DNA of 64,000 nt from Candidatus Woesearchaeota archaeon (GCA_018303105.1 JAGVYU010000061.1:3109-67108), one strand, 5' to 3'. Shown: positions 14,906 to 59,806, counted from the stretch's first letter. A program made the numbers and translations. The notes: a model not told the origin generated them from the letters alone.

Positions 14906-15298
14906 ATGTGGGGTTTAGTGGGAAAGATATACCTGATCATTGTGCTTCTTTTTGTGCTGTCGTGCGCCCCTCTAAGCAGAGAATACGTTAACAATTGTGA
15001 ACAATCCGGGGGAGATTATACTTCTGGTTTCTCTGAAACCAAAGGCCAATATTATTTTTGTGAATGTCCAGATGGCAAATACGAATCAGGAGGGATCTGT
15101 CACGATATCGCTGCTCAACAGGTGGAACTCTGCGAAAAAGTATCTAACAAATTTGTAAACTGTGCGGTTGATGGCAGCGAGTGCATATGCACATTTATAG
15201 ATTCTGGAACAGTCTCTTTTTTACCAATTGGAGTATTGGAAACTTCAAATTGTGAATGCTTTGATGGAGGATGTGGATGCGGACCAAACCTAAACTAA
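14906..15298 (+). CDS. Small Cys-rich secreted lipoprotein
   Basis: A signal peptide ends in the lipobox LFVLSC. The protein has 16 Cys and overlaps the start of the giant gene. Confidence 0.4.
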   Translation: MWGLVGKIYLIIVLLFVLSCAPLSREYVNNCEQSGGDYTSGFSETKGQYYFCECPDGKYESGGICHDIAAQQVELCEKVSNKFVNCAVDGSECICTFIDSGTVSFLPIGVLETSNCECFDGGCGCGPNLN

Positions 15299-18200: not shown

Positions 18201-20067
18201 GACTCAGTGTATGCCCAATGATAAGTATGTCCAGAATTCCTCCAAGACAGAGTACGATGCTAATTATCAAAGTTGTTATGCAGTGACTAATTTATCCACT
18301 GATCGATGGAATAATGGCATTAATAAGACTTATTGGAATTTCACAAACAAGACGTGCGACTTCTGCACTCCCTCGTGGAGTTGCTCAGGATACGGCGCTT
18401 GTCAGATGAATGGAACTCAGAGGTGCAATGCCGCACTCGATGCAAACTCCTGTTTCGCCCAGACCCATCTAAATAATGATAATTACCCGGGCAATTATTC
18501 AGAATTCCCAACGAACATGTGCCCCATCGAGTGCTCAACGAATTCTGATTGCAATGATGGGAATCAAAGCACAGAGGATAGCTGCATTAACGCCTCAACG
18601 ATAATCTCTAACTGTACATATTCCACTATCAACTGCTTCACAGACTCTGAATGTGGCGAGACTGGATTTATTGGCTCTTTGTTCTGCGGGGGTAATGATA
18701 TTCAACAGAATTATCAAACCGCCACTTGTTCCAATCCGGGAACGTCACAAAGCAATTGTTCCGTAACACTCTCTCCAGAATACATCCAAACGTGCGATTT
18801 TGCATGCTTTGAAGGAGTGTGCAAGGAGTGCGATGAAGATGCGGACTGTAATGACAACAATGCTGCAACAGAGGACACTTGTCAAAATGAGGGAACGTCA
18901 AATGCCATTTGCAGAAGTCTACCCATCAGATGCTTCACTGATATAGATTGCGGAATTAACGGTTACGAAGGAGATGAGTTTTGTAGCGGAGATAATATCC
19001 AACAAGAGTACAGATCATTTACATGCTTAGATCCAGCAACATCCGATAGCTCCTGCACATCGAGTACAACACCGTTAACCAATAATATTTGCGATTACGC
19101 CTGCCTCGAAGGCTCATGCATTCGATGCAATGAAAACGCTGATTGTAATGACAACAATAGCCTAACAGCAGACACTTGTATTAACCCTGCAACATTCCAA
19201 AGCAATTGCTCAAACAAACTTAGTCCTCTAGTTATCAACTCTCCTGCGGATGCAGTATTCGGTGTAAAACGTATTCCCGTAAATATCTCCACGAATGAAG
19301 CCATTGATGAAATAACATACCGGGATTTACGAGATGCCCGAGGCAGAGAAAGAACACTATGTAGTAGAGGATGCGAAGGCTACGGCAATGACAAGAAGAA
19401 AACCATCACCTTTAATGACGGGGAGCATGAAGTCAGCTTTAAAGCATACAACCCAACAGGACAGGTTATAGACGAAGAGATCGTAACTTTTAGGGTAGAC
19501 AGCAAAAAACCAAAAATAACCAAAACAAGCCCAACATCAGGATTTGGAACGGGAATTTTTGAGGTGGAGTTTAAAGAAGAAAACCCTGCAGAGCTCATGC
19601 TCCATTATGGCAGCGAAGATCCAAGACTGGTTAACATAGAAGATGAATGCACGTTGGAGAAGGATACATACGCCTGCGCGCCAGAAGTGGATGTATCCCA
19701 GTATGATGGAAGCTCTTTGAGCTATTGGTTTGGCCTTAAAGACATTGCTGGAAGTATGGACTCTTCGCGACCGCGTAGTATTGATGTGGATATAACACCG
19801 CCAGTCATCAATTCATTTGGCTTCCCGCCACCTGATGGAAGAAGCGTCACATTTACATTCAACGTAACTGAACAGAACTTCGATTCCATCAAATATGAAG
19901 ATTGGAGCAACGGAAAGCCAAAAACAGGCACACTCTGCACACGATTAAAGAATGGGATATGTGAAGCTAGGAAAACATTTAGTAAAGGAAGTCATAACGT
20001 CATCTTTACAATAGCAGATTATGCGGGGAATGAAGAGCAAACGAGTGCGGTGTTTACGATAACATAG
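15271..20067 (+). CDS. Giant secreted surface protein: PGAP1-like lipase domain, thrombospondin type-3 calcium-binding repeats, and two families of Cys-rich repeats rich in N-glycosylation sequons
   Basis: A signal peptide is present. AAHSMGGLAVRGY is the GHSMGG nucleophile elbow. DSDNDGIKDVNDNCPYSYNPNQANYDGDSAGDNCDPDDDNDGFND is a TSP3-type DxDxDG repeat. A roughly 60-aa module (CxxC...NxSW...YDSNYxSCY...WNNGxNKTHY) occurs at least 5 times. A second roughly 95-aa module (CxTDxDCG...NCS...CDxAC.EG.C..C.E.ADCND.N..T.D.C) occurs 3 times. There are dozens of NxS/T sites. Confidence 0.8.
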   Translation: MWMRTKPKLMALLNISVFFLFILVQVAYADLEGYVYKVKDGPEGYYASSSFSSGTLHFFFDNAEEISTQLNEDGSFEIDPGDLFCWEGCNIYPAITLKEIRVYEGEEPLSSLLIPYSNINQSYNAINPVFINLFLDNKEINDDVITWDSSFISAEDLIGIQSSEESIYFVSWNGTIVIPEEEEYFFSFEGMGSVNFWIDGQQGIFKGKVGEGIKLTPGEHELRAEYFILNSTSSPNILWRYNEVSGFVPLENLRITSGESKKVMKDSRFQTLSLSDYGLSEIYPSWSWWGYVTYNTQKRPLLLIHGWSNNNLGPAQTNLWTQWGTLPGGLENLGDEILEVVYNPANLDNRKNAGMLNLVLSQIKNYGYNFEKIDVAAHSMGGLAVRGYIQNMGLTSSGNSVSYGSNIRKAIFIGSPLQGTYLANLINDGYNFPGSCDALDFFFNLNVVSEATKNMEIGSDYLWNLNTASFNSNVDYLTIGGFNQYVACLYNSNMVEDGVVPMSSSNLLGYNVPHITLDRVHTTIVDNPQVLGVIDDFLNNRGTNEIKSNLYYSGEYYIDPSSHYYLALGGITISFTDKNRVTGVQIYNPTTGWKNLYQNSRTKRWFYLNPVPPNFNFNSFTTELPVGTYNIYYNEGSGFFYSGQNAYIDYDSTTYVTINNLDSDNDGIKDVNDNCPYSYNPNQANYDGDSAGDNCDPDDDNDGFNDNQDVCQFQYGTCRGCPLNPNWTLNSTWSACTVQDTQFKNYYDTNMCGQTPPPPVSQACNFCNYSPTNTSWSFFANVSLCRTNDTQLINVSRKEYDSNYASCYQITGISFDLWNNGQNKTHYTTNQTSCDYCYPIPLNSSWGDWYNITVCRANKTKVQEREKTEFDSAYSMCYALTQNPLDKWNNGNNKTHYQQTTIPCCDPILTNTSPSQWTNVSCLINDTMNQTRFKIEYDSNSCGTVQNRTIIEYQQIEKCDFCKPNPINTSWSPWQNATQCMPNDKYVQNSSKTEYDANYQSCYAVTNLSTDRWNNGINKTYWNFTNKTCDFCTPSWSCSGYGACQMNGTQRCNAALDANSCFAQTHLNNDNYPGNYSEFPTNMCPIECSTNSDCNDGNQSTEDSCINASTIISNCTYSTINCFTDSECGETGFIGSLFCGGNDIQQNYQTATCSNPGTSQSNCSVTLSPEYIQTCDFACFEGVCKECDEDADCNDNNAATEDTCQNEGTSNAICRSLPIRCFTDIDCGINGYEGDEFCSGDNIQQEYRSFTCLDPATSDSSCTSSTTPLTNNICDYACLEGSCIRCNENADCNDNNSLTADTCINPATFQSNCSNKLSPLVINSPADAVFGVKRIPVNISTNEAIDEITYRDLRDARGRERTLCSRGCEGYGNDKKKTITFNDGEHEVSFKAYNPTGQVIDEEIVTFRVDSKKPKITKTSPTSGFGTGIFEVEFKEENPAELMLHYGSEDPRLVNIEDECTLEKDTYACAPEVDVSQYDGSSLSYWFGLKDIAGSMDSSRPRSIDVDITPPVINSFGFPPPDGRSVTFTFNVTEQNFDSIKYEDWSNGKPKTGTLCTRLKNGICEARKTFSKGSHNVIFTIADYAGNEEQTSAVFTIT

Positions 20068-35499: not shown

Positions 35500-36196
35500 C
35501 GCGTTCTACGCAAAACGATTTTGGCTCGGATTCCTTGATGAGATCACAGGCTGATTCATTCTGCTGGAGCCGGGCGATTCTCGAGATGCATGTCACCCGC
35601 AAGCCGAAATCCTCAATCGTGAGGCATCCTGACGTATTCTGCGTCTTTGTATAAACACGAAATTTACAGCCTTGTGCCTCATATGAATTATCGATGAATG
35701 AGCAGATGGAATCCGTTGTCGTGTTGACTGCAACTTTGTTATAACATTCATTGCGGTCTACGCCTTCATCGACCTCATGGCAGAGCTCTATGTTATTTGT
35801 CGCAATGCCAATATTCTTAAAGCATACATCCGACCAGTATGAGTTCGTGAGGTCATAACAATCATTCCCTGCAAGCTGCTCCTGAGCAACCCCGGCGAAG
35901 CAAAAATTCCTGCGCTTGTCATCCACAACAGATGCACATATCGACTTGTTCATCGTCTGAACGCCTATCTCCGCAGTGCACTGATCCCTGAATTTTTGAT
36001 CCGTCACTTGCGCACAGAGCTCAAGGGAGTGTGCCGAGACCGCGGTGTCAGCATAACAGTTCTGCCTATCCGTGTCTGAAGAGAATTGTTTGCACGGATC
36101 AGGTGTGCACGCTACAAGGAGCGCGAGCATCCCAAAGAGTAATAGTAACCGCATACAGCTGCGGAAAAAAACGAGTTTATAAAAGTTATGGAACAT
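35483..36196 (-). CDS. Cys-rich secreted lipoprotein
   Basis: The signal peptide [16 protein letters not shown] ends in a lipobox, and the protein has about 20 Cys. The true start is probably the internal MRLLL. Confidence 0.5.
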
Positions 36197-36225
36197 TTAT
36201 ATATATTTCCGATTCAAAGACGCGC

Positions 36226-37929
36226 ATGAAGATCTCGCCCATATTCACATTTGGAATAGTTGTCTTTCTTGCCGCGGTGCTTATGTATGTCAACACGATC
36301 CCAAATGAGTTTGCATGGGATGACCGCGACTTTATTTTTGAGAATCCGCAGATTACGTCGCTCTCAAATGTCCCCAGCTTCTACGTTACAGAGTCAAGCC
36401 ATGGGCTTTGGAGGCCACTGCGCGAAACGGTATACGCATTGACGTATGCTATATGGAAATTGAATCCTGTTGGTTATCATATAAATGGCATTGTGTTACA
36501 TGCGTTCATTTCTTTGTTATGTTACGGTATTACGCTAAGACTTTCCAAAAAACCTATGCTTGCATTATTTACTGGGTTATTGTTTGCAGTGCATCCCCTC
36601 CACACAGACAGAGTCACGAACATGACCGCGGGATTTGACCTCTGGGGGATATTGTTTATGCTCCTTGCATTCTATGTGTTCATTAGATATCGCGAGTCTG
36701 CAAAAATTTCGTTGTATGGAGCAAGCCTCATCATGCTCATACTTGCGTTGTTGGCGTCGGAGGAAGCAGTCGTGTTCGTTCTTCTGCTGCTGCTCTTTGA
36801 TTTTGTGTATACGTATGGTTGGAGCCTCAGAAAAACTGTTGCATCATGGAGATCATATGTCCCGTTCATCCTTATCACGCTGCTCTTTGTTTTTGCGCAC
36901 ATCATGATCGTGGGCAGAGTCGGACGCGCATCACATTATTTTTACAATAGCTTTTTAGCCACACAACTCACGAGCATTAAAGCGCTGGCACTCTATGTTG
37001 GATATTTCTTTCTCCCATTCAAGCTGACGATCCACCATGAACTCGCGGCTACCACGTCATTGCTCAGCATTCCACTGCTCATCTCCACCATTGTGCTGCT
37101 CGCGCTCTTCGTTCTCGTATGGGCATCGTATAAGAAAAACAAAATTATCTTTTTCTCGATCGCGTGGTTTTTCATCACGATGCTCCTGTTCATGAACTTC
37201 CTGCCTAAGCCAACGATCTTTGCTGAACGGTATGCGTATCTCGCGTCATTCGGGTTTTGCCTGGCGGTTGCCTATGGATTACATCAACTAACTTCACAGA
37301 AGAAGTCTAAGTTCCTGGGATTTGCGCTCATTCTTTTGATCGTCATTGCGTTCAGTGCCCGTACGTATGCGCGAAACATGGACTGGCGTGACGAGGAAAC
37401 ACTGCTCGTGAAAACGCTCGAAACCTCCCCACTCAGCACGAGCGCGCACTCCGACATTGGGGAATTCTACAAACGCGCAGGAGATTTTGAAAAAGCGGAG
37501 GAGCATTTGCTTAGAGCCGCAGAATTGTCACGGAATAATTTCCGGGCGCGGGATGAGTTAGGAACACTCTACGCCGAGCAGCAGCGCTATGACCTCGCGG
37601 AACAATACCTTATAGAAGCTATTGATGCCTACCAAGAGGACGATCGCGGGTATTACAAAGGGTACAACGACCTCGGAGTGCTCTATCTGCGCTGGGGAAA
37701 GATTGATGAGGCCATATTCACCCTGAAAAAAGCCATTGCAATTCGGCCAGATTTCGCAAAAGCACATCATGACATGGGGCTCGCATACGCGCAGAACGGA
37801 TTACTCGAGGAAGCGGAGCAGGAAATGCGAACCGCGATCGCGATTAATCCTTATGAACCCATGTATCAAAACAATTTGCGTATCCTTCTAGAAAAACGTA
37901 AAAGCTTAAATACGGAAGAATCGCCGTGA
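36226..37929 (+). CDS. TMTC-like GT-C membrane glycosyltransferase with C-terminal TPR repeats
   Basis: It has about 11 TM segments and a first-loop acidic motif NEFAWDDRDFIFEN (DD/DE as in PMT/TMTC GT-C enzymes), then at least 6 TPR units. The start is taken at MKISPIF, not the upstream GTG. Confidence 0.65.
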   Translation: MKISPIFTFGIVVFLAAVLMYVNTIPNEFAWDDRDFIFENPQITSLSNVPSFYVTESSHGLWRPLRETVYALTYAIWKLNPVGYHINGIVLHAFISLLCYGITLRLSKKPMLALFTGLLFAVHPLHTDRVTNMTAGFDLWGILFMLLAFYVFIRYRESAKISLYGASLIMLILALLASEEAVVFVLLLLLFDFVYTYGWSLRKTVASWRSYVPFILITLLFVFAHIMIVGRVGRASHYFYNSFLATQLTSIKALALYVGYFFLPFKLTIHHELAATTSLLSIPLLISTIVLLALFVLVWASYKKNKIIFFSIAWFFITMLLFMNFLPKPTIFAERYAYLASFGFCLAVAYGLHQLTSQKKSKFLGFALILLIVIAFSARTYARNMDWRDEETLLVKTLETSPLSTSAHSDIGEFYKRAGDFEKAEEHLLRAAELSRNNFRARDELGTLYAEQQRYDLAEQYLIEAIDAYQEDDRGYYKGYNDLGVLYLRWGKIDEAIFTLKKAIAIRPDFAKAHHDMGLAYAQNGLLEEAEQEMRTAIAINPYEPMYQNNLRILLEKRKSLNTEESP

Positions 37930-37933
37930 ATGC

Positions 37934-39610
37934 ATGAAAAAGCACATTCTGTCCATCATTCTCATCCTCGTCCTAACGCTCATCGCGTACGGGAATATTT
38001 TTTCGAACGAATTCGTTTGGGATGATCGGATTTATCTTGAGGAGAATCTTGTCATAAGGTCTTTAGCGAACACGCCCACCTTTTTTGTAACTCCTACACA
38101 CGGGAATCTCTACAGACCACTGCGCAGTGTCCTGCAGGCGTTCGTTTTTTCCATATGGGAGTTTGATGTGTTCGGATACCACCTTAATGCGTTGCTTTTA
38201 CACATGATAGCGAGCGTTCTCGTTTACGTTATTGTGCTCAAGCTATTTCAAAAAAGAAAACTGGCGCTCTTCACCGGAATTTTATTCGCCGTGCATCCTA
38301 TCCACACAGACAGAGTCACAAATATGACTGCGGGATTTGATCTGCTTGGAATTGTACTCATGCTTGCCGCGTTTCTCGCATATCTTCTCTATAAGGAATC
38401 CCGAAAGAAGATTCCACTAGTAATCAGCATTGTGTTATTCGTTCTCGGGCTTTTCTCAAGCGAGGAGGCGTTCATGCTGCCATTCCTCATCTTGCTCTAT
38501 GAGTTAGCGTTTGCGAAAACAACGCTCATGGAAAGAGCCCGTGAACTTGCCAAGCATAAGGCGCTCTATGTGTTTCCCGCGCTTCTTGTTCTTTACTTGA
38601 TCATTCGCATCGCCGTCACAGGAAGTCTTGGACGTGCTGCCCAATATCCTGCCGGAACATTCTCAGCAACGATAGTCATCACGATCAAAATCCTCGCTCA
38701 TTACCTCGGCCTGCTCATCCTTCCCATCAATCTGTCGCTTCAGCGCGTAGTTCCCGTGGCAACATCGCTCTTTGATCCTCTTGTGTTTATCTCTCTCCTA
38801 CTACTTCTTGCATTGATTGCTGTCGCATTTTGGTCGCGAACGCGACGGCCCATCATCTTCTTCGCGATCGGATGGTTTTTTCTCACGCTAGTCCCCTTCA
38901 TGAATATCCTCCCAAACTTCTCGCTCATGGAAGAACGGTATACATACGTTGCAAGCATCGGTTTTTGTTTGCTTATCGCATACGCATTCACGCTTGCATA
39001 TCAAAAAAAGGAGTGGAAAATCCCTACGCTTGTCGTTTTCGCATTGGTTTTGATCCTCTACACGGTGGGAACGATGCAGCGTAACGCGGAATGGAGAGAC
39101 GACATCACGCTCTGGGAACGCACGGTAATCACCTCGCCGAACAGCGCACGGGCTTGGGACAACCTTGGGCAGAGTTACGAAGCACTCGGCAGGTTTGATG
39201 ACGCGCTTGAGGCGATTGATACGTCGTTAACAATAGACGAGAATAACGCATTCGCGCATAACAACCTTGGCATTGTATTTGCAGAAAAAGGCCTCTATAA
39301 TTATTCCATCGCTGAGTTTCTCATCGCTATTGAGCTTGAGCCTAATTACGCTCGGGCGTATGACCATCTGGGGCTTGCATATCTGCGATTGAATGATACG
39401 GACAAGGCCATAGCGGCATTCGCAACCGCGATCCAACTTGAACCGGGACTTTACAAAGCATACAATGACCTGGGAACAGCATTAGTGTATACAGGAGAAA
39501 TGGACCGCGCTGAACTCGCGTTTCAGCAAGCGCTCAAAATCAACCCGCGCTATGAAGCAGCGCAGAAGAACCTGGAATCATTGCAGCGTCTGAAGGCGAA
39601 GACGCAATGA
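37934..39610 (+). CDS. TMTC-like GT-C membrane glycosyltransferase with C-terminal TPR repeats (tandem paralogue)
   Basis: Same architecture as the upstream gene. It carries NEFVWDDRIYLEEN, HPIHTDRVTNMTAGFDLLG (compare HPLHTDRVTNMTAGFDLWG in the upstream copy), and TPRs at the C-terminus. Confidence 0.65.
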   Translation: MKKHILSIILILVLTLIAYGNIFSNEFVWDDRIYLEENLVIRSLANTPTFFVTPTHGNLYRPLRSVLQAFVFSIWEFDVFGYHLNALLLHMIASVLVYVIVLKLFQKRKLALFTGILFAVHPIHTDRVTNMTAGFDLLGIVLMLAAFLAYLLYKESRKKIPLVISIVLFVLGLFSSEEAFMLPFLILLYELAFAKTTLMERARELAKHKALYVFPALLVLYLIIRIAVTGSLGRAAQYPAGTFSATIVITIKILAHYLGLLILPINLSLQRVVPVATSLFDPLVFISLLLLLALIAVAFWSRTRRPIIFFAIGWFFLTLVPFMNILPNFSLMEERYTYVASIGFCLLIAYAFTLAYQKKEWKIPTLVVFALVLILYTVGTMQRNAEWRDDITLWERTVITSPNSARAWDNLGQSYEALGRFDDALEAIDTSLTIDENNAFAHNNLGIVFAEKGLYNYSIAEFLIAIELEPNYARAYDHLGLAYLRLNDTDKAIAAFATAIQLEPGLYKAYNDLGTALVYTGEMDRAELAFQQALKINPRYEAAQKNLESLQRLKAKTQ

Positions 39611-45242: not shown

Positions 45243-45983
45243 GTGCTCAAAACCCCTAAAAAGGAGGTTTCTCATATGAAAACAGGACTATGGATACTGT
45301 GTGTACTTACATTGTTTATTGTGGCATGCGCGCCAACACCGCCTGAAGCGCCGCCCGCTCCAGAACCCGCGGCTCCACAGGAACAGGTTACAGAGCCTGT
45401 AACACCCGCCCCGGAACCTACTAAGGAGATCGACTCCCCAACACGGGAATTCCTTGCCAAACATGATAAAGTGACGAGTTATAGCTACGGATTCGGCGAG
45501 CTCAACCAGCGTGACAAGATTAACGTAAAAGGTGACTTCATACGCATTGATCTCAGCGAGCGCAGAGGCAAGAATGATGAGGAGCGCTATGATGTTGTTT
45601 TCCTCGACGTGAAGGCGAAAACAGCGAAGGGAACGTGCGAAGCGAGCATCTGTGAGCCGAATTATTACAAAACGTATGTCGAGGCCGTCTATGGAGCGCA
45701 TGACCTAGAAAAGCTGCCATTGGATTACTTGGGAGATATCGCATATGCGGAGCTGGGCAAGAACACGCAGCTTCTTGAGAATAGAAAAACACAGGAAGTC
45801 CTTGTCGAGATGAAGGATGGCAGCACAGGAACGATGTGGCTGGACGAGTTTTATGGCTTCCCGTTCCAGATCGAGCTGACAAAAAACGACAAGAAAACAA
45901 CGATAACGTTCTATGATGTAGCCATAAACAGCCTCAACGACGATGACGTGAAGGTGCCTTCAAGCTTTACGCTGCGCCAATGA
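45243..45983 (+). CDS. Secreted lipoprotein, hypothetical
   Basis: The signal peptide ends in the lipobox LFIVAC, and a Pro/Glu-rich linker follows. Confidence 0.5.
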   Translation: MLKTPKKEVSHMKTGLWILCVLTLFIVACAPTPPEAPPAPEPAAPQEQVTEPVTPAPEPTKEIDSPTREFLAKHDKVTSYSYGFGELNQRDKINVKGDFIRIDLSERRGKNDEERYDVVFLDVKAKTAKGTCEASICEPNYYKTYVEAVYGAHDLEKLPLDYLGDIAYAELGKNTQLLENRKTQEVLVEMKDGSTGTMWLDEFYGFPFQIELTKNDKKTTITFYDVAINSLNDDDVKVPSSFTLRQ

Positions 45984-46576
45984 ACGGACTCCAACATTTT
46001 GCCCTGATCACAGGGCTTCTTATTCTTATTGCTTCATTTCTTATTTTTCAGAATGCGTTGACGGACAGGCCGCCCCCAGAGCCGCAGACAACTCCTCTCG
46101 ACTCTGTGATTCCTGAAGTCCCTTTAGCGCCGCCCGTGCCGGAAGAGGTATTTATTCCAGAAGATTCTCAGCAAGAGGTCTTTGTCGAGATAAAAAACCT
46201 TCAATTCCAGCCTAAGGTCATAACCATACTGCCCGGGACAACCGTAACCTGGATTAACAAGGACGAGCTTCCGGGAAGCCCGGGAAGGGCAAGAACACAC
46301 ATGATAAAAGGATTCGCCGGATTCAGAAGCGAACGCCTTGAACTCAACCAAAGTTACAGCTACACGTTCACTGAGGTCGGGGAATACCGCTACATAGATA
46401 CAATCTTCACAAAACAAATGGAAGGAACGGTTGTCGTTTCCGAGAAGGCTCTGGATGCTGTCACGGGAAATGTCATTCTGAATGTGCCATCGTCTCTCGG
46501 CCCGGGAACGTTAGTCATGGTCGTATTCTTCGTGAGCATGGCCGGAGCGCTCATTGTTACTCACAGACATGCTTAA
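45980..46576 (+). CDS. Cupredoxin-like beta-sandwich protein with a C-terminal PGF-CTERM-like sorting tail
   Basis: It has an N-terminal TM segment and a PE-rich linker. The block ITILPGTTVTWINKDE...YSYTFTEVGEYRYID is paralogous to the 50089..50574 protein. The C-terminus GPGTLVMVVFFVSMAGALIVTHRHA reads as Gly-Pro-Gly, a TM helix, then a basic tail. Confidence 0.45.
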   Translation: MNGLQHFALITGLLILIASFLIFQNALTDRPPPEPQTTPLDSVIPEVPLAPPVPEEVFIPEDSQQEVFVEIKNLQFQPKVITILPGTTVTWINKDELPGSPGRARTHMIKGFAGFRSERLELNQSYSYTFTEVGEYRYIDTIFTKQMEGTVVVSEKALDAVTGNVILNVPSSLGPGTLVMVVFFVSMAGALIVTHRHA

Positions 46577-50088: not shown

Positions 50089-50574
50089 CTAAATAACCCT
50101 AATAATCAAATTAAAATCTTCCCGTAATTGCTCATCTTCAATGCTGACATCTATGACCTCATACGTTCCTTTGGTTTCAAACGTGTATGACCAATTAGCT
50201 CCGGAACGGACTGCTGCGGAAGAGAATCTGTCCTTCGTGTTTTTACGATTCCAGCCGATGAGCGAATGCCCCTGCTGCGTGAGATCATTGTTTATGAATT
50301 CAAGCGTTTCTCCTCTGGGGATGGTAATATTGTTGGGTAGAAAACCAAGCTCATCGATTAGGATTTGGGGATTCTTCGGCTCCTCAACAACGGGAGGTTC
50401 TTCGATTGGTTCTTCCTCCTCAGCTTCTGGCCCCTCAACAATGGGCTCAGGCGTTTCTTCTACAGGAATTTCTTCAATGGGGACTTCAGGCTCTTGAACA
50501 ACGACTTGCTGGGGAAATGCTGGAGCGCATGCTACGAGAAGCACAATGCACACAAGGATTGCTGCTATTCTCAT
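50089..50574 (-). CDS. Cupredoxin-like secreted lipoprotein (paralogue of the 45980..46576 protein)
   Basis: The signal peptide MRIAAILVCIVLLVAC ends in a lipobox. A PE-rich linker follows, then ITIPRGETLEFINND...WSYTFETKGTYEVID. The start is taken at the internal Met at 50574. Confidence 0.5.
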   Translation of the reverse strand: MRIAAILVCIVLLVACAPAFPQQVVVQEPEVPIEEIPVEETPEPIVEGPEAEEEEPIEEPPVVEEPKNPQILIDELGFLPNNITIPRGETLEFINNDLTQQGHSLIGWNRKNTKDRFSSAAVRSGANWSYTFETKGTYEVIDVSIEDEQLREDFNLIIRVI

Positions 50575-50835
50575 TTCTTCACGCTCTTGCAGGGCTGATC
50601 CGCGTACGCGCAAATGACACAATGCGCGTCTCGTGGGCATGGGATGATCATGCCGCAGCCTCTGCAGCTATAAAATGGCAATACCCCCCTGTCCGGAGCC
50701 TTAATGTCCTGCGTATGCTTACAGTCAGGGCATGTGATGCGCATGCATTGTAAGTGGTGATCCCCTATTTATACATTTGGATGCCGGAATGGATGCACGA
50801 AACCTTTATAAACGAACGGAAACCTCTTTTACCTT

Positions 50836-51093
50836 ATGAAAGCCGTCATCGCGCACTTCAGGCAAAACCGGCATAGGACCGTTGGGAATCACATGATCGT
50901 GAGGGTAGACGGTGTAGAAGATCGAAAAAAAGCTTCTGACCTCCTTGGAAAAACCGTAGTGTGGAAAAGTCCAAAAGGAAAAGAAATCAAGGGAAAAGTC
51001 GCTGCTCCTCATGGGAATAAAGGCGCAGTCCGCGTCATCTTTGAGAAAGGCATGCCGGGACAGAGCATCACGCAGCATGTTGAGATTAGTTGA
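50836..51093 (+). CDS. rpl35ae: 50S ribosomal protein L35Ae
   Basis: HMIVRVDGVEDRKKASDLLGKTVVWKSPKGKEIKGKVAAPHGNKGAVRV is an L35Ae beta-barrel. Confidence 0.85.
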   Translation: MKAVIAHFRQNRHRTVGNHMIVRVDGVEDRKKASDLLGKTVVWKSPKGKEIKGKVAAPHGNKGAVRVIFEKGMPGQSITQHVEIS

Positions 51094-52102: not shown

Positions 52103-52156
52103 GCCATAGAAAAGTTTAAATACTGTTTTGGCTCGAACAGCTCAAAGAGGGATAGA

Positions 52157-53647
52157 TTGAAAGCACTGAAGCGATTCACCATTCTCGGCGTGTTGGCGAC
52201 TGTTGCGAGCTTGCAGGTTGTGCATGCTGATATCATTCCGAGATTTATCACAGATAATATTCGCAATTGGTTTACACTGGGTGTCCAAGATTGGTTCTTG
52301 AAGGTTTTACTCTGGGTGCTCATCTTCTGTATCATGTACGTTGGGGCAATCAAGATCCCTGCATTCGCAGACCACAAGAACATCGTTATCACGTTCGCTT
52401 TTGTAATAGCAACTTTAAGCGCTGTCATGGCACCTGCAGATATGCTCCGCAGCATCGCGAAAAGTTACGGATTCCTCTCAAATGCTATACTCCTCCTAAT
52501 TCCCGTTGCTGGCGGTTTGTACCTTGCGCACACCTTCGATAAGTCTACTGGGTGGGGCAGAGGAATGCGAGCAATGATATTTGCGATCGCCGCATGGATG
52601 ATAGGCAGCGCGGCTATTTATGTGCAACAAACAGGCGTAGGACAATGGTCCTGGCGAGATCTCTTTGACCTTTCCACAACAATATTGTTTGTGCTTGCGA
52701 TTGCTAATTTGGTGATGGCGTTTAAGGGAAGCGGTTCTTCAAGTTCAGTAACTTCCACCCCTGCTGCGCAAGCCGAACAAAAAGCGGAATCGCAAAAAGC
52801 GCAGAAACAGGTTGCCGAGGCTGATGCGGAGGAAAAGGAGTTAGAAGCGGAAGAGAAAAAGGAAAAGCAGGCCGAGAAAAAGCTGCTCAAGGATATTGAG
52901 AAGATACGACAGCGCGATGTCCATGAAGTGGACAAACAGATAGCTGATCTTAACCTGATTATTACCGCGCTGCAGCAGGGCATCATTCCAGATGATACGA
53001 AGAAGAAAGTCAACAAAGCGATAGCGAGCCTGAAAGAAGAGATCAGCAGGGAGGATGAATTTGAGCGACAGTTTATTCAACGCTCCGCTGAATTTCAAAA
53101 TATCGTTAACAAAGATTTCTCCATCTTGAAAAAACTTGGTGACGCAACACAGTTTGATGCGATTGCGGTTAAACTCAAGGAGGTTATGGATGCAAATCAG
53201 GCATCATATGGATGGCATACCCCTGAACCAGGTAGGCTAGCTAAGATTAGGCAAGCACTTGGAGGACCCTTTGGAGGTGCTCCGTTAGCTGCTACTGCAC
53301 CTCTGAAAGCGCTTTTTGATGACCTGAAAAAGGTCCGTGATGATGTTGGCAATGCAATTCGTACAGAAGTGGATCTACTCAAACAACATCAACAAAACTA
53401 CGAAACGTTGATCAATGAAGGTGTTGAACGCTACCAGGCAAGGGATAGAATCGCTGTTCAGGCCTTTGTGAATGCGCGTGAGGAGAAAAAAGAGCAGCAA
53501 AAAATCCTCAAAGATCTAGGCGGGGTCACTAAGATGGCACGAGACTGGACAAACCATGCGGTGCACGATCTTGAGAAGTTTAGATCAAATACGAACCTCA
53601 ATAACCACCGGATCTTAGCCTGGTTGGCGAAAGTCGACAAACCGTAG
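52157..53647 (+). CDS. Membrane-anchored long coiled-coil protein (paralogue 1)
   Basis: An N-terminal roughly 200-aa domain with 5 TM helices is followed by about 290 aa of charged heptad-rich sequence (AEAEEKKEKQAEKKLLKDIEKIRQRD...). Confidence 0.6.
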   Translation: MKALKRFTILGVLATVASLQVVHADIIPRFITDNIRNWFTLGVQDWFLKVLLWVLIFCIMYVGAIKIPAFADHKNIVITFAFVIATLSAVMAPADMLRSIAKSYGFLSNAILLLIPVAGGLYLAHTFDKSTGWGRGMRAMIFAIAAWMIGSAAIYVQQTGVGQWSWRDLFDLSTTILFVLAIANLVMAFKGSGSSSSVTSTPAAQAEQKAESQKAQKQVAEADAEEKELEAEEKKEKQAEKKLLKDIEKIRQRDVHEVDKQIADLNLIITALQQGIIPDDTKKKVNKAIASLKEEISREDEFERQFIQRSAEFQNIVNKDFSILKKLGDATQFDAIAVKLKEVMDANQASYGWHTPEPGRLAKIRQALGGPFGGAPLAATAPLKALFDDLKKVRDDVGNAIRTEVDLLKQHQQNYETLINEGVERYQARDRIAVQAFVNAREEKKEQQKILKDLGGVTKMARDWTNHAVHDLEKFRSNTNLNNHRILAWLAKVDKP

Positions 53648-53684
53648 AGCTAAATTTATATACTCTTTGTTCACGTTTTAATGG

Positions 53685-55343
53685 ATGGCAGTTAGACCCG
53701 GCTTCTGGAAATTAACATCTGTTGTTCTGGCATTCCTTATTTCACTTCCTTTCGCATTCGCCGCCCTCATCCCTGCCATTGTAACAGATAACCTCCGCGT
53801 CTGGTTTGGATCCGGTCTAGGTCTCGATCAAGTTTGGGTTGTGAGGTTTATGCTCTTCATTCTTCTTTACGCCATTATTTACTTCGGCGCGAGCAAAGTG
53901 TTTCAGGGGCATCAAAACATCGCGATCACGGTTTCAATTGTGCTCGGGCTGCTCGGGTCACTTACGGCTCCACCAGACATGCTTATGTCGATTGCCACAA
54001 CATATGGGTTGCTCGGGAATGTTCTTTTCCTCTTAGCGCCTGTTTTTGCAGGGTTGTATGTGGCCCATAAACTCAATACGGGCGGAGCGTATGGTCATGT
54101 CATTCGCGCGTTTATCTTCTTCATGCTCGCATGGTTATTGTCCACAGGGCTCACGATGTACGACATGCAGTGGAGCATGGGCAATTTCGAGTTTTCAGAC
54201 GGAGTACAGCTGGCGATGACTGCGTTTATTATCCTGGGCATATGGTCCTTGATAAAAGGATCCGGAGAAGCCGTTAGAGGAGATATCTCATCATCAGGCT
54301 CCGGATCCGGCTTTTTCGGGAGCAGCAGGGAACGCGGCAGCAGGATTATGGGAAAAATAGGAGATTGGTGGAGAGGAAGAAGGAGAGATCCGCGGGAGAT
54401 TCGACCAAAAAGAAGATGGTGGCAGTTTTGGAGGAGGAAAATGACTCCCGAACAGGAAGCGGATGCTGCTCTCGAAACAACAGATGTTGCCCAAATTGGA
54501 CAGACAACAGCCCAGATTGACAGAGCTATAGCAGAAAATCGCCAGGATGAAGAAGCGGAAGATACTCAGGCAGGCCGGGTGGCAACTACTGAAGATAACA
54601 TAGCGGGGGAAGAAGAACAAGAGCTGGAGGTATTAGCTGCAGATTTGGGGGGTTTATCGGGTGCACCTCAAGAAAAAAAGGAGGCTATCGTAACTGATAT
54701 GAAACGTAGAATTAGCACTCTAAAAAGATGGGATGCTGAGGATAGAGAGCTCATTAAAACTCTTGAAAACATCGAAGGACACATTAAAAAAACAGAAGAA
54801 AAACCAATGTTGATTGTGAGATGGGCTCGGAAAAACTTGCGAGACCAAGTAACGAAGCTGGCGAATATTGAATTAAAGAAGATTGAAAAGCGTAAAGACG
54901 AAATTATGAAAAGCGAGGGTAAAATACCTGAGAAGGACATGAAAGCTATTATGGAAGATAAGAAAAAAGTTGAATCATTGCTGGCTCAAGCAATTAAAAT
55001 GATTGAAGATGACGTTAATAAGGAAGCGGAAAGCTGGCAAAGACAAATCGTTGCTTCCTTAAATACTGTGCAACAATTAATTCCGCAGATAAGACAAGAT
55101 CAGCAGGCTTATGAAAACTATGTGTCGAAAGCTATTCAAGAGGTAAACGGTGGAAATCCGCAAGCTTTGCCCCTATCAGAGGAAGATTTCAGAGCAGCTC
55201 AGAAAATCAAATCAGATCAGAGAAAGAGATTAAAAAGACTTAAAGAGATTGTGAATTCCAAATTAAGATTCGATCAACGTGTAGTGGGGAAATACGATTT
55301 CAAGGATTTACAGAAGTTTGTAAAGAACAAATTCAAGGTTTAA
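53685..55343 (+). CDS. Membrane-anchored long coiled-coil protein (paralogue 2)
   Basis: The N-terminal TM domain aligns with paralogue 1. IPAIVTDNLRVWF aligns with IPRFITDNIRNWF, and PPDMLMSIATTYGLLGNVLFLLAPVFAGLYVAH aligns with PADMLRSIAKSYGFLSNAILLLIPVAGGLYLAH. An RG/RR-rich linker and a coiled coil follow. Confidence 0.6.
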   Translation: MAVRPGFWKLTSVVLAFLISLPFAFAALIPAIVTDNLRVWFGSGLGLDQVWVVRFMLFILLYAIIYFGASKVFQGHQNIAITVSIVLGLLGSLTAPPDMLMSIATTYGLLGNVLFLLAPVFAGLYVAHKLNTGGAYGHVIRAFIFFMLAWLLSTGLTMYDMQWSMGNFEFSDGVQLAMTAFIILGIWSLIKGSGEAVRGDISSSGSGSGFFGSSRERGSRIMGKIGDWWRGRRRDPREIRPKRRWWQFWRRKMTPEQEADAALETTDVAQIGQTTAQIDRAIAENRQDEEAEDTQAGRVATTEDNIAGEEEQELEVLAADLGGLSGAPQEKKEAIVTDMKRRISTLKRWDAEDRELIKTLENIEGHIKKTEEKPMLIVRWARKNLRDQVTKLANIELKKIEKRKDEIMKSEGKIPEKDMKAIMEDKKKVESLLAQAIKMIEDDVNKEAESWQRQIVASLNTVQQLIPQIRQDQQAYENYVSKAIQEVNGGNPQALPLSEEDFRAAQKIKSDQRKRLKRLKEIVNSKLRFDQRVVGKYDFKDLQKFVKNKFKV

Positions 55344-55398
55344 CCACTGGACATCCTCCTGCGCTTCATTTATATTCTCGCGTTTTTCACAAGCTACC

Positions 55399-56999: not shown

Positions 57000-57860
57000 A
57001 TGGAATTGAAGAATCACCGGATACTTCGGAAATATAATGATATTTTTGAATTTATTCGAAAGTGCAATAAGAAAATCGCAGGTTTTGCTATGGCTGTTTT
57101 CACAGTATCCGAAACATATATATACAACGCTCTTAGAATTTTCTCAGGTGAGGATATGGCATTGCAACTGAAGAAAATACCGAAAAACCCGATTATTATC
57201 GAAGGATTCCCGGGATTTGGCCTTGTTGGCACGATCACGACGGAATTTCTCATGGATCATCTTAAAGTCGAAAAGATTGGAAAGATCACGTTTGACAACA
57301 TGCCTGCGATAGCGGCCGTGCATGAGGGCAAGCTTGTGGAGCCCATGGGAATCTTCTATAACAGCGATCATAATCTCGTGCTTGTGCACAGCATTCACGC
57401 TGCCCAGGGCAGCGAATGGGTAATGGCTGAGTCTATTGCGGAGCTCGCAAAAAAAGTCAGCGCGAAAGAAATCATCAGCATTGAGGGTGTAGGCACAGCA
57501 AATGCGACAGGTGAGAGAACTTTCTATTTTACGAAGAATCCTGAGTTGGAGAAGAAGCTCAAAGCGATTACGCAGCCTTTGAGGGAAGGGATTATTATGG
57601 GCGTAACAGGAGCTGTTTTGCTCCATGTGGATAAAGTGCCCATAAGCTGCCTTTTCGCCGAAACTACGGCAGAGATGCCTGACAGCAAGGCAGCTGCACG
57701 CATTATAGGGCTTCTTGACAAGTATCTTGGACTTAAGATAGATACTGGGCCATTGTTGAAACAGGCAGAGCAGTTTGAGGCGAAGCTTAAGGGAATACTC
57801 TCACAAAGCAAGCAAGTTGAGGAAATTAGCGAAAAAAAGAAGATGAGCTATGTAGGTTAA
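57000..57860 (+). CDS. PAC2-family protein (proteasome assembly chaperone-like). The true start is probably an internal Met.
   Basis: PIIIEGFPGFGLVGTITTEFL is the PAC2 hallmark G.PG.G.VG. A hydrophobic-Tyr near the C-terminus (SYVG) is weakly reminiscent of HbYX. Confidence 0.5.
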   Translation: MELKNHRILRKYNDIFEFIRKCNKKIAGFAMAVFTVSETYIYNALRIFSGEDMALQLKKIPKNPIIIEGFPGFGLVGTITTEFLMDHLKVEKIGKITFDNMPAIAAVHEGKLVEPMGIFYNSDHNLVLVHSIHAAQGSEWVMAESIAELAKKVSAKEIISIEGVGTANATGERTFYFTKNPELEKKLKAITQPLREGIIMGVTGAVLLHVDKVPISCLFAETTAEMPDSKAAARIIGLLDKYLGLKIDTGPLLKQAEQFEAKLKGILSQSKQVEEISEKKKMSYVG

Positions 57861-59137: not shown

Positions 59138-59806
59138 ATGTGGGTTGTTTTCATGGCTAGAACGTATAATGAGTATTATCTCGGATGGCAGGAGATTAAC
59201 AGGATCATAGCCTGTGCCAAGAACCTCAAAGAGCGGGTAATTCTAAAGATTCTGGCGAGAACAGGCATGCGAAGATTCGAGCTTGCAAATCTTCGCGTAA
59301 AAGACGTCGATTTTGACCGCAAGCGCATCTATATCAGCAAGGGAAAAGGAGGAACTGACGAGGATCCAAAATCGAGGATCGTTCCTATCGACGATGACAC
59401 CCTTCAAGATATCAAGTTTTATCTCGAAGGACGCCGGGCCGGAATATTGATCCAGAGCAATAAAAAAGCGCATGACGGCATCTCTTTATCCGCAATAAAC
59501 AGGATTACCGAAGGGGCTGCTGAACGGGCAGGAATCCGGAATCCTAATCCAAAGCTTAAGCATCTCAATCCCCATATCTTCAGGCACAGTTTCTCACGGC
59601 TCAGCCTCATGGAGGGCATTCCCTTCAACATTGTGCAGAAAATTGTTGGACACGCCGATGCGCGAACAACGCTGCAAATGTACGGAGTACCGTCGATAAA
59701 TGACGCTCAGCATATGTACAACGAAAAGCTGACTATGCGCTTTCACCAAAAAGTGAGCCTTGAGGAAGATAACAAGCTTTCAAAATTTACGTCTGACAGA
59801 TCGTAA
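59138..59806 (+). CDS. Minimal tyrosine recombinase/integrase (catalytic domain only)
   Basis: The catalytic residues are R in TGMRRFEL, K in ISKGKGG, HxxR in HIFRHSF, the second R in HADARTT, and the nucleophile Y in LQMYG. No N-terminal SAM-like core-binding domain is present. Confidence 0.8.
   Translation: MWVVFMARTYNEYYLGWQEINRIIACAKNLKERVILKILARTGMRRFELANLRVKDVDFDRKRIYISKGKGGTDEDPKSRIVPIDDDTLQDIKFYLEGRRAGILIQSNKKAHDGISLSAINRITEGAAERAGIRNPNPKLKHLNPHIFRHSFSRLSLMEGIPFNIVQKIVGHADARTTLQMYGVPSINDAQHMYNEKLTMRFHQKVSLEEDNKLSKFTSDRS

What the first reader, a model, noticed from the sequence alone, without database searches (positions are those of the whole stretch)
52157..55343. Tandem paralogous membrane-anchored proteins with 300-aa charged coiled-coil tails
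Both proteins share a conserved five-helix TM domain, with alignable blocks such as I(P)..(I/V)TDN(I/L)R.WF and P(A/P)DML.SIA..YG(F/L)L(S/G)N. Each then extends into very long, K/E-rich heptad sequence. The second copy also carries an RG/RR-rich linker (WWRGRRRDPREIRPKRRWWQFWRRK).

This architecture is reminiscent of membrane-tethered filament or scaffold proteins. Cytoskeletal, S-layer-anchoring or cell-division roles are possible. I cannot assign either protein to a family.
Basis: seen in the sequence. Interest (0 to 1): 0.5.

Follow-up and report, generated by a model that had tools for sequence, protein, structure and literature searches.

The report
Unnamed DPANN five-helix membrane protein pair
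Two neighbouring genes of a Woesearchaeota (DPANN) archaeon encode diverged copies of a widespread but never-described archaeal membrane protein whose conserved five-helix membrane core carries a fast-evolving, helical, charged tail that most likely faces the cytoplasm; its function is unknown, though a membrane-anchored scaffold is the best guess.

Summary
ORFs 52157-53647 (496 aa) and 53685-55343 (552 aa) are real tandem paralogs: their N-terminal 190 residues are 39% identical (E 7e-40). Both continue into 300-350 aa charged, helical tails. The RW/RR-rich linker is present in copy 2.

New findings:
- The organism is a Candidatus Woesearchaeota archaeon, and both genes are deposited as "hypothetical protein".
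- The N-terminal module defines an unnamed family (428 clusters at 50% identity). It has no consistent or above-threshold Pfam or NCBIfam match, no PADLOC match, and no significant match to solved structures or BFVD viral models.
- Every named member is a DPANN archaeon. The gene usually sits downstream of ribosomal protein L35Ae and often upstream of PAC2.
- A cleavable signal peptide, five TM helices and a family-wide positive-inside pattern put the tail in the cytoplasm. This argues against S-layer anchoring through the tail.
- Tails are lineage-specific and broken by Pro/Gly into 30-70-residue helices. They are not one 300-aa rod.
- Between near-identical strains, copy 1 lies in a sharp divergence island.

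Function is unproven. My best guess (0.4) is a membrane-anchored cytoplasmic scaffold or adaptor. Interest is moderate.

The parts
52115..52122 (+). TATA-like box (TTTAAATA) about 40 nt upstream of the p1 TTG, followed by an SD-like AGAGGGA at about 52146-52152
   Evidence: Read directly from the sequence. Promoter function is inferred, not tested.
52157..53647 (+). p1 CDS, 496 aa (TTG start), family copy 1
   Evidence: ORF list. 100% identical over full length to NCBI J4464_07085. Family HMM E 5e-57.
52157..52228 (+). p1 signal peptide (aa 1-24, ...VVHA|D)
   Evidence: Family-wide pattern: KK n-region, hydrophobic core, P at -5, V at -3, A at -1 (A in 94% of 127 sequences). Cleavage is inferred.
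52229..52735 (+). p1 conserved membrane module (aa 25-193): short ecto amphipathic helix plus five TM helices. K49 is the family-invariant basic residue.
   Evidence: BLASTP against p2, hydropathy, family alignment.
52736..53644 (+). p1 tail (aa 194-496): S/T linker, an E/K/Q/A-rich helix, then amphipathic helices broken by a G/P-rich loop at aa 352-382
   Evidence: Composition and periodicity. Detectable similarity only to its ortholog P0002, one weak local match to P0034 (E 1.4e-4) and weakly to the p2 C-terminus.
53655..53662 (+). TATA-like box (TTTATATA) 30 nt upstream of the p2 ATG, inside the 37-nt intergenic spacer. This suggests p2 has its own, probably leaderless, transcript.
   Evidence: Read directly from the sequence. 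Inferred, not tested.
53685..55343 (+). p2 CDS, 552 aa, family copy 2
   Evidence: ORF list. Exact match to MBS3143126.1/J4464_07090. Family HMM E 1.7e-58.
53685..53762 (+). p2 signal peptide (aa 1-26, ...AFA|A)
   Evidence: Cleavage is inferred.
53763..54266 (+). p2 conserved membrane module (aa 27-194): ecto helix 31-42 and TM helices 50-72, 77-94, 97-129, 135-159, 170-198. Conserved residues are R54, P96, Y107 and P119.
   Evidence: AF2 model m55831ad8c337, pLDDT 85. Conservation table.
54267..54440 (+). p2 juxtamembrane linker (aa 195-252): G/S-rich stretch, then the Arg/Trp-rich WWRGRRRDPREIRPKRRWWQFWRRK (54366-54440)
   Evidence: Sequence. Family-wide, the 40 aa after TM5 are G-rich (17.8% against 4.9%) and W-enriched (2.4% against 0.6%). 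A strain-variable indel lies here.
54441..55340 (+). p2 helical tail (aa 253-552). On five other contigs it is called as a separate 300-aa ORF starting at M253.
   Evidence: AF2 single-sequence helices, periodicity, cluster members P0188 and P0191-P0194.
52240..53890 (.). Divergence island between otherwise 99-100% identical strains. It covers nearly all of p1, the spacer and the p2 signal peptide and ecto helix. A second patch lies at 54192-54491.
   Evidence: Sliding nucleotide identity of the window against L002, L003 and L004. dS is saturated in the p1 tail but 0.056 in the p2 tail and 0.10 in the next gene.
50836..51093 (+). Ribosomal protein L35Ae gene, the conserved upstream syntenic marker of the family locus
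   Evidence: Pfam. L35Ae lies 0.7-4 kb from the family gene in L008, L009, L017, L018, L019 and L020.
57000..57860 (+). PAC2-family gene, the conserved downstream syntenic marker
   Evidence: Pfam. PAC2 lies downstream of the family gene in L009, L015 and L020.

Best explanation
p1 and p2 are two diverged tandem copies of an undescribed membrane protein family whose named members are all DPANN archaea (Woesearchaeota/Nanoarchaeota).

Proposed mechanism:
- Each protein is targeted by a cleavable Sec signal peptide and inserts as a five-helix bundle with the N-terminus outside and the C-terminus inside.
- In p2 only a short acidic amphipathic helix and two short loops, about 45 residues in total, face outward.
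- The conserved bundle is the anchoring, and probably self-associating, core. It carries an invariant Lys/Arg at the outer end of TM1, conserved Pro/Tyr/Pro in TM2-TM3, and basic cytoplasmic loops.
- A Gly/Trp-rich juxtamembrane linker lies at the inner membrane face. In p2 it is expanded into an Arg/Trp-rich stretch.
- The 300-aa charged tail folds into several amphipathic helices (hairpins, bundles or short coiled coils) in the cytoplasm.
- I propose that the tail acts as a membrane-proximal scaffold or adaptor, possibly with p1 and p2 working as a pair, and that its partners vary between lineages.

Status of each step:
- Shown: paralogy, family membership, conservation pattern, synteny, tail variability.
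- Inferred: signal-peptide cleavage, topology, helical bundle structure.
- Speculative: the scaffold or adaptor role and p1-p2 pairing.
For: Paralogy and family:
- Paralogy E 7e-40.
- A profile search over 1.84 billion representatives finds 428 clusters at E<=1e-3 and 143 at E<=1e-10. In almost all of the 150 listed hits the module is N-terminal, followed by tails of 70-670 aa.

Topology (127 sequences):
- The signal-peptide signature is near-universal: A at -1 in 94%.
- Loops 1-2 and 3-4 carry about 2.5 K+R each, against about 0.5 in loops 2-3 and 4-5.
- The N-terminal ecto segment has net charge -2.3.
- p2 has 11 K/R in the 25 aa that begin about 35 residues after TM5.

Structure of the core:
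- The AF2 model of the module is confident (pLDDT 85).

Tails:
- Tails are amphipathic-helical with 3.5-residue periodicity (z about 6) and are predicted helical.
- Tails share no detectable similarity across the family, while the TM module is under purifying selection (dN/dS 0.11-0.23).
- In a short-tailed subfamily an adjacent or overlapping gene encodes a long soluble charged helical protein. This fits a membrane core plus a helical cytoplasmic partner that can be fused or separate.

Genomic behaviour:
- Tandem pairs recur in at least three lineages.
- The conserved chromosomal position L35Ae...X...PAC2 indicates a vertically inherited cellular gene, not a mobile one.
- Two viral-contig scans using motifs of two subfamilies found no relative, and PADLOC gave no defence-system match for p1, p2 or four other family proteins.
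Against: - No experiment, interaction datum or homology to any characterised scaffold supports the functional part.
- The strong conservation of the TM module, including an invariant charged residue, could mean that the module itself is the functional unit (transporter, channel or enzyme) and the tail is only regulatory.
- Rare members carry two PKD domains (P0033) or a papain-like C1 peptidase (P0058; L008/L006) in the tail. These domains are usually extracellular and conflict with a cytoplasmic tail.
- S/T- and P-rich linkers in some members are also typical of extracellular stalks.
- The tail structure rests on a low-confidence single-sequence model, with overall pLDDT 53.
- p1-p2 interaction is pure conjecture.
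Confidence: 0.4

Rival explanations
1. The five-helix module is itself the functional unit: a small transporter, channel, lipid-handling protein or insertase-like protein that uses the invariant basic residue. The variable cytoplasmic tail only regulates or spaces it.
For: - The module is the only conserved part. K/R54 is 100% conserved, with P96 92%, Y107 95% and P119 98%.
- dN/dS is 0.11-0.23.
- Tails are freely replaced (coil, P/G/Q-rich, papain-like, PKD) and vary from 70 to 670 aa.
- The N-out/C-in five-TM topology with an amphipathic helix before TM1 and a charged C-tail resembles YidC/Oxa1 in outline. That comparison comes from my own knowledge.
Against: - Pfam and NCBIfam give only scattered sub-threshold hits, such as Yip1 and Mem_trans in 3-4 of 40 members.
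- The TM1-TM2 loop is about 6 residues, so the YidC C1 hairpin is absent.
- Few conserved polar residues lie inside the bundle.
Confidence: 0.25
2. The locus is a variable determinant in an arms race or recognition process, for example a receptor for viruses, a host-symbiont contact or self-recognition factor. Alleles would be exchanged by recombination.
For: - A sharp divergence island lies exactly over p1, the spacer and the p2 N-terminus (identity falls to 53-87%) within flanks that are 99-100% identical. A second variable patch lies in the p2 linker.
- dS is saturated in the p1 tail against 0.06-0.10 nearby, which implies import of an old divergent allele.
- Tandem duplication recurs and tails are hypervariable family-wide.
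Against: - Only two haplotypes were seen.
- p1 dN/dS is 0.11, so there is no sign of positive selection.
- The most divergent part is the predicted cytoplasmic tail, and very little of the protein is exposed outside.
- The conserved core-genome position argues against an accessory or defence island.
- No PADLOC match for p1 or p2.
Confidence: 0.15
3. The tail is extracellular: an envelope or S-layer-associated stalk anchored by the polytopic domain.
For: - Rare members have PKD x2 or papain-like C1 domains and P-rich or S/T-rich linkers in the tail. These are typical of archaeal surface proteins.
Against: - A cleaved signal peptide (N-out) followed by five hydrophobic helices gives C-in.
- The family-wide positive-inside pattern agrees.
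- The highly basic p2 linker is unlikely to be translocated.
- No S-layer or envelope gene is adjacent.
Confidence: 0.08

Closest known systems
YidC/Oxa1/Alb3 membrane insertases, especially Gram-positive YidC and mitochondrial Oxa1 (comparison from my own knowledge of the family)
   Same: - N-terminal signal sequence.
- An amphipathic helix on the outer face before the first core TM.
- A five-TM core with N-out/C-in topology.
- A conserved basic residue in the first core TM.
- A charged, partly helical cytoplasmic C-tail. In Oxa1 and YidC2 this tail binds ribosomes.
- The gene here is syntenic with a ribosomal protein gene, which is suggestive only.
   Different: - No Pfam 60KD_IMP or DUF106 hit.
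- The TM1-TM2 loop is about 6 aa instead of the cytoplasmic C1 coiled-coil hairpin.
- The basic residue sits at the outer end of TM1, not in a mid-membrane hydrophilic groove.
- The tails are net-neutral K/E-rich, not simply basic.
Generic polytopic-anchor plus cytoplasmic coiled-coil scaffold proteins, such as eukaryotic TMCC/TMCO-type proteins and bacterial coiled-coil-rich membrane scaffolds
   Same: - A membrane anchor joined to long charged amphipathic helices with heptad-like periodicity.
- Tails evolve quickly and are compositionally biased.
   Different: - No sequence relationship.
- Here the anchor, not the coil, is the conserved element, and it has its own invariant residues.
- Coils are short segments broken by Pro/Gly.
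SMC-like proteins and methyl-accepting chemoreceptors (the families named in the finding as possible refutations)
   Same: Long charged helical segments.
   Different: - No SMC_N, hinge, HAMP or MCPsignal domains in p1 or p2 at E<=1.
- The membrane topology is different.
Woesearchaeota/Pacearchaeota-specific protein-family module of mostly unknown function (module 98 of Castelle et al. 2021, PMC8204110)
   Same: - Lineage distribution: all named members are Woesearchaeota or Nanoarchaeota.
- No functional annotation.
   Different: Whether this family is one of those 51 families was not checked. The paper describes no such protein.

Membership tests
Unnamed signal-peptide + 5-TM + variable-tail family, named members all DPANN (defined here from 127 sequences) | Significant match to the profile of the N-terminal membrane module | tested here: met
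   p2 E 1.7e-58 and p1 E 5e-57 against the A3 HMM, which includes both sequences. Independent support: P0003, at 29-32% identity, was found with E 3e-16. The library search gave 428 clusters.
Unnamed signal-peptide + 5-TM + variable-tail family, named members all DPANN (defined here from 127 sequences) | Sec-type signal peptide with a small residue at -1 and -3, followed by a short amphipathic ecto helix | tested here: met
   p1 has VHA|DIIPRFITDNIRNWF and p2 has AFA|ALIPAIVTDNLRVWF. Cleavage itself was not tested.
Unnamed signal-peptide + 5-TM + variable-tail family, named members all DPANN (defined here from 127 sequences) | Invariant K/R at the start of TM1 and conserved P96, Y107 and P119 (p2 numbering) | tested here: met
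   p2 has R54, P96, Y107 and P119. p1 has K49, P93, Y104 and P116.
Unnamed signal-peptide + 5-TM + variable-tail family, named members all DPANN (defined here from 127 sequences) | Gly-rich, Trp-containing juxtamembrane linker after TM5 | tested here: inconclusive
   p2 meets it (GSGSGFFGSS...GDWWRG...). p1 has an S/T-rich linker without Trp. Family-wide, 72 of 115 members have a Trp.
Unnamed signal-peptide + 5-TM + variable-tail family, named members all DPANN (defined here from 127 sequences) | Chromosomal position near L35Ae and/or PAC2 | tested here: met
   In the window, L35Ae is at 50836 and PAC2 at 57000. The same markers appear in L008, L009, L015, L017, L018, L019 and L020, but not in L011, L012 or L013.
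SMC / SMC-like | ABC-type ATPase head (SMC_N), hinge and antiparallel coiled-coil arms | tested here: not met
   No such Pfam or NCBIfam hits for p1 or p2 at E<=1.
Methyl-accepting chemotaxis proteins | HAMP and MCPsignal domains after 2 TM helices | tested here: not met
   No hits. The proteins have five TM helices plus a signal peptide.
YidC/Oxa1 insertases | 60KD_IMP/DUF106 profile match or YidC fold | tested here: not met
YidC/Oxa1 insertases | Cytoplasmic coiled-coil hairpin (C1) between the first and second core TM | tested here: not met
   The TM1-TM2 loop is about 6 residues, consensus FKDNK.
YidC/Oxa1 insertases | N-out/C-in five-TM core with a conserved basic residue in TM1 | tested here: inconclusive
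   The topology and an invariant K/R are present, but the residue lies at the outer boundary of TM1.
ESCRT-III / PspA / Vipp1 (for the tails) | Snf7 or PspA_IM30 profile match | tested here: not met
   No hit at E<=1.
Yip1 domain (five-TM) | PF04893 match above the gathering threshold | tested here: not met
   Only 3 of 40 module sequences match (best E 0.031), and 1 of 115 full-length members (E 4e-5). Neither p1 nor p2 matches.
Archaeal S-layer anchors (SlaB-like; architecture from my own knowledge) | Extracellular coiled-coil stalk with a single C-terminal TM anchor | tested here: not met
   The architecture is reversed: an N-terminal polytopic module and a predicted cytoplasmic tail.

The most novel reading that the evidence does not exclude
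The family could be a core membrane module specific to DPANN archaea, with a previously unseen fold. It would organise the inner face of the membrane of these tiny symbiotic cells, for example as a cortical scaffold or a docking platform for ribosomes, proteasomes or contact-site machinery. Its cytoplasmic tails would be exchanged between strains by recombination and duplicated repeatedly to diversify partners.
Probability: 0.15. Interest if true: 0.7.

Novelty: new variant of a known kind. Interest (0 to 1): 0.4.

Why it matters
DPANN archaea have tiny genomes, and most of their lineage-specific proteins have no known function. A membrane protein retained at a fixed chromosomal position across Woesearchaeota/Nanoarchaeota is therefore a concrete candidate for a lineage-specific cell-envelope or cell-cortex function. 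The features that make it a candidate are:
- It has been duplicated repeatedly.
- It has no detectable relative among curated families or solved structures.
- Its cytoplasmic tail is hypervariable.

At minimum it deserves a family definition (a DUF-type entry), and the module is a candidate new membrane fold. On present evidence, however, it remains a well-delimited protein of unknown function, not a demonstrated new system.

Tried and rejected
**Searches that failed or found nothing**
- Word-indexed homology searches failed. Full-length p1 retrieved only itself and its ortholog. TM-domain profiles retrieved 1 and 3 proteins, because charged-coil or hydrophobic words swamp the candidate list.
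- Curated libraries gave nothing consistent: Pfam, NCBIfam and PHROGs on p1 and p2 and on 40-115 family members; PADLOC had no match for p1, p2 or four other family proteins.
- PDB by sequence found nothing significant, with single proteins or with the profile.
- Two viral-contig scans, each limited to one subfamily's motifs, found none, so a viral origin has no support.
- The metagenome scan with the p1/p2 subfamily returned a single locus. The broad alignments had no stretch conserved enough to scan with.

**Hypotheses not supported**
- YidC-like insertase: not supported by the fold search or by loop architecture.
- Tail homology: the soluble partner of the short-tail subfamily (L001) has no detectable similarity to the p1 or p2 tails. 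No tail motif is shared across the family.
- Small neighbouring ORFs of the window (149, 166, 128, 81, 101 and 161 aa) are not conserved next to family genes elsewhere.
- The 'phage integrase' 4 kb downstream lies in a block whose order recurs in L019 and L020 and largely in L013. It is therefore more likely a XerA-like chromosomal recombinase, not evidence of a mobile element.

**Literature**
- Searches found no description of such a protein.
Full report
**1. What is at the coordinates**

The window carries two same-strand ORFs separated by 37 nt. p1 is 52157..53647 (TTG start, 496 aa) and p2 is 53685..55343 (ATG, 552 aa). Both exist in public databases as hypothetical proteins J4464_07085 and J4464_07090 (MBS3143126.1) of a Candidatus Woesearchaeota archaeon.

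The surrounding genes are archaeal housekeeping genes:
- radical SAM enzyme, methyltransferase, Gins51, L44e, a cupredoxin-like protein and L35Ae upstream;
- an RNase H-fold protein (PF13482), PAC2, a tyrosine recombinase and an HTH protein downstream.

No S-layer or envelope gene is adjacent. The nearest large surface-type protein is 32 kb away. Each of p1, p2 and the next gene is preceded by a TATA-like box: TTTAAATA at 52115, TTTATATA at 53655 and TTTATATT at 55369. The two copies are therefore probably transcribed separately. This is an inference from sequence only.

**2. Checking the observation**

- **Paralogy.** BLASTP of p1 against p2 gives 39% identity over 188 residues, E 7e-40, confined to residues ~12-195.
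- **TM module.** Hydropathy shows an N-terminal hydrophobic segment plus five further ones. An AlphaFold2 model of p2 residues 1-207, built with a 40-sequence alignment, is confident (mean pLDDT 85). It shows helices 5-20 (signal peptide), 31-42 (amphipathic), 50-72, 77-94, 97-129, 135-159 and 170-198.
- **Tails.** They are charged (K+R 17-20%, D+E 17-18%). Their 3.5-residue hydrophobic periodicity is about 6 SD above shuffles.
- **Not one long rod.** Pro/Gly clusters interrupt the tails every 30-70 residues. The single-sequence model of full-length p2 (overall pLDDT 53, but 70-90 for much of residues 330-530) predicts separate helices 329-372, 374-411, 416-488 and 499-526. The tails are helical and heptad-like, but more likely hairpins or bundles than one 300-residue coiled coil.
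- **Linker.** The Arg/Trp-rich linker is p2 residues 228-252.
- **Tail-to-tail similarity.** Beyond the TM module, p1 and p2 align only over their last 75-95 residues, colinearly but weakly (BLAST E 0.009; hhalign E 4.5e-4, probability 33%). The whole gene was probably duplicated and the tails have since diverged almost beyond recognition.

**3. A large unnamed family**

Curated libraries give no consistent or above-threshold match for either protein or for 40-115 relatives: Pfam, NCBIfam and PHROGs returned only scattered sub-threshold hits, and PADLOC had no match for p1, p2 or four other family proteins. Word-indexed searches failed.

An exhaustive HMMER search with a profile of the TM module found 428 clusters (50% identity) at E<=1e-3 and 143 at E<=1e-10. 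In almost all of the 150 listed hits the module is at the N-terminus of proteins mostly 270-870 aa long.

All source names are 'hypothetical protein'. The members that carry an organism name are Candidatus Woesearchaeota, Nanoarchaeota or Candidatus Nanoarchaeia. Informative contexts carry archaeal markers: L35Ae, PAC2, RNA polymerase subunits H and L, and NOG1. A few short MAG contigs are labelled Methanosarcinales or Gammaproteobacteria. One of them carries an L35Ae gene visibly similar to the window's (by eye, not aligned), so I suspect mis-binning. This was not tested.

Conservation across 127 sequences (p2 numbering):

| Feature | Conservation |
|---|---|
| Signal peptide | KK n-region, Pro at -5, Val at -3, Ala at -1 (94%) |
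| Ecto amphipathic helix | I33, D35, L37, L40, F41 |
| Basic residue at outer end of TM1 (position 54) | K/R in 100% |
| Cytoplasmic TM1-TM2 loop | consensus FKDNK |
| P96 | 92% |
| Y107 | 95% |
| P119 | 98% |
| Position 141 | K/R in 76% |
| Trp-Asn in TM5 | common |
| 40 residues after TM5 | G 17.8% against 4.9% in the rest of the tail; W 2.4% against 0.6% |

p2's RG/RW linker is thus an elaborated version of a family feature. p1 lacks the Trp.

The module model has no significant structural neighbour:
- Foldseek against PDB gives a best E of 0.96.
- Foldseek against BFVD gives a best E of 0.53.
- The profile against PDB sequences finds nothing.
- AFDB could not be searched.

**4. Topology**

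Three lines of evidence converge on a cytoplasmic tail:
- A near-universal cleavable signal peptide puts the mature N-terminus outside.
- Five hydrophobic helices then put the C-terminus inside.
- Loops 1-2 and 3-4 each carry about 2.5 K+R per sequence, against about 0.5 in loops 2-3 and 4-5. The N-terminal ecto segment has net charge -2.3.

The 11 K/R in p2's 25-residue linker fit this picture. In p2, roughly 45 residues of the mature protein are outside.

The counter-evidence is real but rare. One member has two PKD domains in the tail (P0033). Two lineages have a papain-like C1 peptidase domain there: P0058, and the L008/L006 protein (Pfam 44.9 bits). Such domains are usually extracellular.

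**5. Genomic behaviour**

- **Fixed position.** L35Ae lies 0.7-4 kb from the family gene in the window and in L008, L009 (a 497-kb contig), L017, L018, L019 and L020. PAC2 follows in the window, L009, L015 and L020. The recombinase/methyltransferase block of the window recurs in L013, L019 and L020. This looks like a vertically inherited cellular gene, not a mobile or viral one. Two viral-contig scans, each limited to one subfamily's motifs, found no relative.
- **Recurrent tandem pairs.** p1 and p2 are each other's best non-orthologous hits (about 120 bits against <=85 for others). The two copies in the L008/L006 genome are likewise closest to each other (172 bits). The L018 pair is older (84 bits).
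- **Unrelated tails.** Across the family the tails are charged helices, P/G/Q-rich stretches or the rare domains above, with a median of about 200 aa and a range of 81-666 aa. None apart from the orthologs shows more than one weak local match (P0034, E 1.4e-4) to the tails of p1 or p2.
- **A soluble partner in a short-tailed subfamily.** In L001, L005 and L006 the next gene, overlapping or adjacent, encodes a long soluble charged helical protein. These partners are related to each other (E 8e-13) but not detectably to the p1 or p2 tails.

**6. Strain-level variation**

Contigs L002, L003 and L004 come from three different assemblies: a groundwater metagenome, a second ENA metagenome and an NCBI genome assembly (a MAG, judging by the accession). 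All three carry the same alternative haplotype.
- Against L003 and L004 the window is 99-100% identical on both sides (91-100% against L002), but identity falls to 53-87% from about 52240 to 53890. That span covers nearly all of p1, the spacer and the p2 signal peptide.
- A second patch at 54192-54491, the p2 linker, falls to 75% in its most divergent 150-nt window and has a 21-nt indel.
- dS is saturated in the p1 tail, 0.45 in the p1 module, 0.056 in the p2 tail and 0.10 in the next gene. p1 dN/dS is 0.11.

This indicates replacement by an old divergent allele through recombination, not rapid point-mutational adaptation. On five other contigs the p2 tail is called as a separate 300-aa ORF starting at M253. 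This hints at frameshift or split variants in the linker.

**7. Interpretation**

Shown:
- a real tandem pair;
- membership of a large, unnamed family whose named members are all DPANN archaea, with a conserved five-TM module;
- a conserved chromosomal position;
- hypervariable tails.

Inferred:
- signal-peptide cleavage;
- N-out/C-in topology;
- a helical-bundle tail.

My preferred mechanism (confidence 0.4): the module is a membrane anchor, and probably an oligomerisation core, holding a cytoplasmic helical scaffold or adaptor against the inner membrane face. The Gly/Trp (in p2 Arg/Trp) linker would lie at the interface, and paralog pairs would diversify the partners.

Rivals:
- The module itself is a small transporter, channel or insertase-like unit with a regulatory tail (0.25). 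It shares an outline with YidC/Oxa1 but fails that family's fold and loop tests.
- The locus is a recombining recognition or arms-race determinant (0.15).
- The tail is an extracellular stalk (0.08). This is disfavoured by topology.

**8. Novelty and score**

The genes are already deposited as hypothetical proteins, and the general architecture (polytopic anchor plus charged helical tail) is a familiar kind. Three things appear to be undescribed: the family, its module (no match among curated families or solved structures), and its fixed position in the Woesearchaeota/Nanoarchaeota genomes examined. Function remains unknown. I rate it a new variant of a known kind, interest 0.4.

Noticed in passing
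window 52240-53890 and 54192-54491 (against L002, L003, L004): A sharp divergence island (identity falls to 53-87%) sits inside flanks that are 99-100% identical between strains. It covers p1, the spacer and the p2 N-terminus. A second variable patch with a 21-nt indel lies in the p2 Arg/Trp linker. Synonymous divergence is saturated in the p1 tail, which implies import of an old allele by recombination.
   Followed up: partly
window 54441-55340 (p2 residues 253-552): On five other metagenome contigs the p2 tail is called as a stand-alone 300-aa protein starting at M253 (P0188, P0191-P0194). This suggests frameshifted or split variants at the linker, or assembly errors there.
   Followed up: no
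L001 2211-3323; L005 4645-5112; L006 2163-4175: In a short-tailed subfamily the membrane protein is followed, overlapping or adjacent, by a long soluble charged helical protein. These partners share an N-terminal MA..I.D....(Y/F).KLV motif (by eye) and are mutually related (L001 against L006, E 8e-13). They may be a split version of the tail.
   Followed up: partly
L012 8001-9344 (P0033); L011 8001-10610 (P0058); L008 5962-7158 with L006 1-1137: Family members carry two PKD domains or a papain-like C1 peptidase domain (Cys/His/Asn motifs visible by eye in P0058) in the tail that topology predicts to be cytoplasmic. This is an unresolved conflict.
   Followed up: partly
L001 283-489: A short ORF (…QQEYWNGVPFPPPGGHPDPGIKPVSLTSPALA…) resembles, from memory, the pseudo-ORF of artiodactyl SINE repeats. 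The 3.3-kb contig carrying P0003 may be chimeric or host-contaminated.
   Followed up: no
window 59138-59806: The 'phage integrase' gene lies in a block (recombinase, HTH protein, MTS methyltransferase) whose order recurs in L019 and L020 and largely in L013. It is more likely a XerA-like chromosomal recombinase than a mobile-element integrase.
   Followed up: partly
L009 10049-13654; L015 2-2329: In one relative a 1201-aa coiled-coil protein (faint TPR hits) converges on the family gene. In another, an SMC gene lies directly upstream. Any functional link is unknown.
   Followed up: no
window 45980-46576 and 50089-50640: Two small cupredoxin-like (plastocyanin/azurin family) proteins. The second has an N-terminal hydrophobic segment and a very acidic E/P-rich linker.
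   Followed up: no
window 15271-20067; 36031-39610: A 1598-aa protein has sub-threshold PA14, thrombospondin type 3, Ig-like and alpha/beta-hydrolase-like hits, so it is probably surface-exposed. Two adjacent TPR proteins follow, the second with a PMT_2 glycosyltransferase domain.
   Followed up: no
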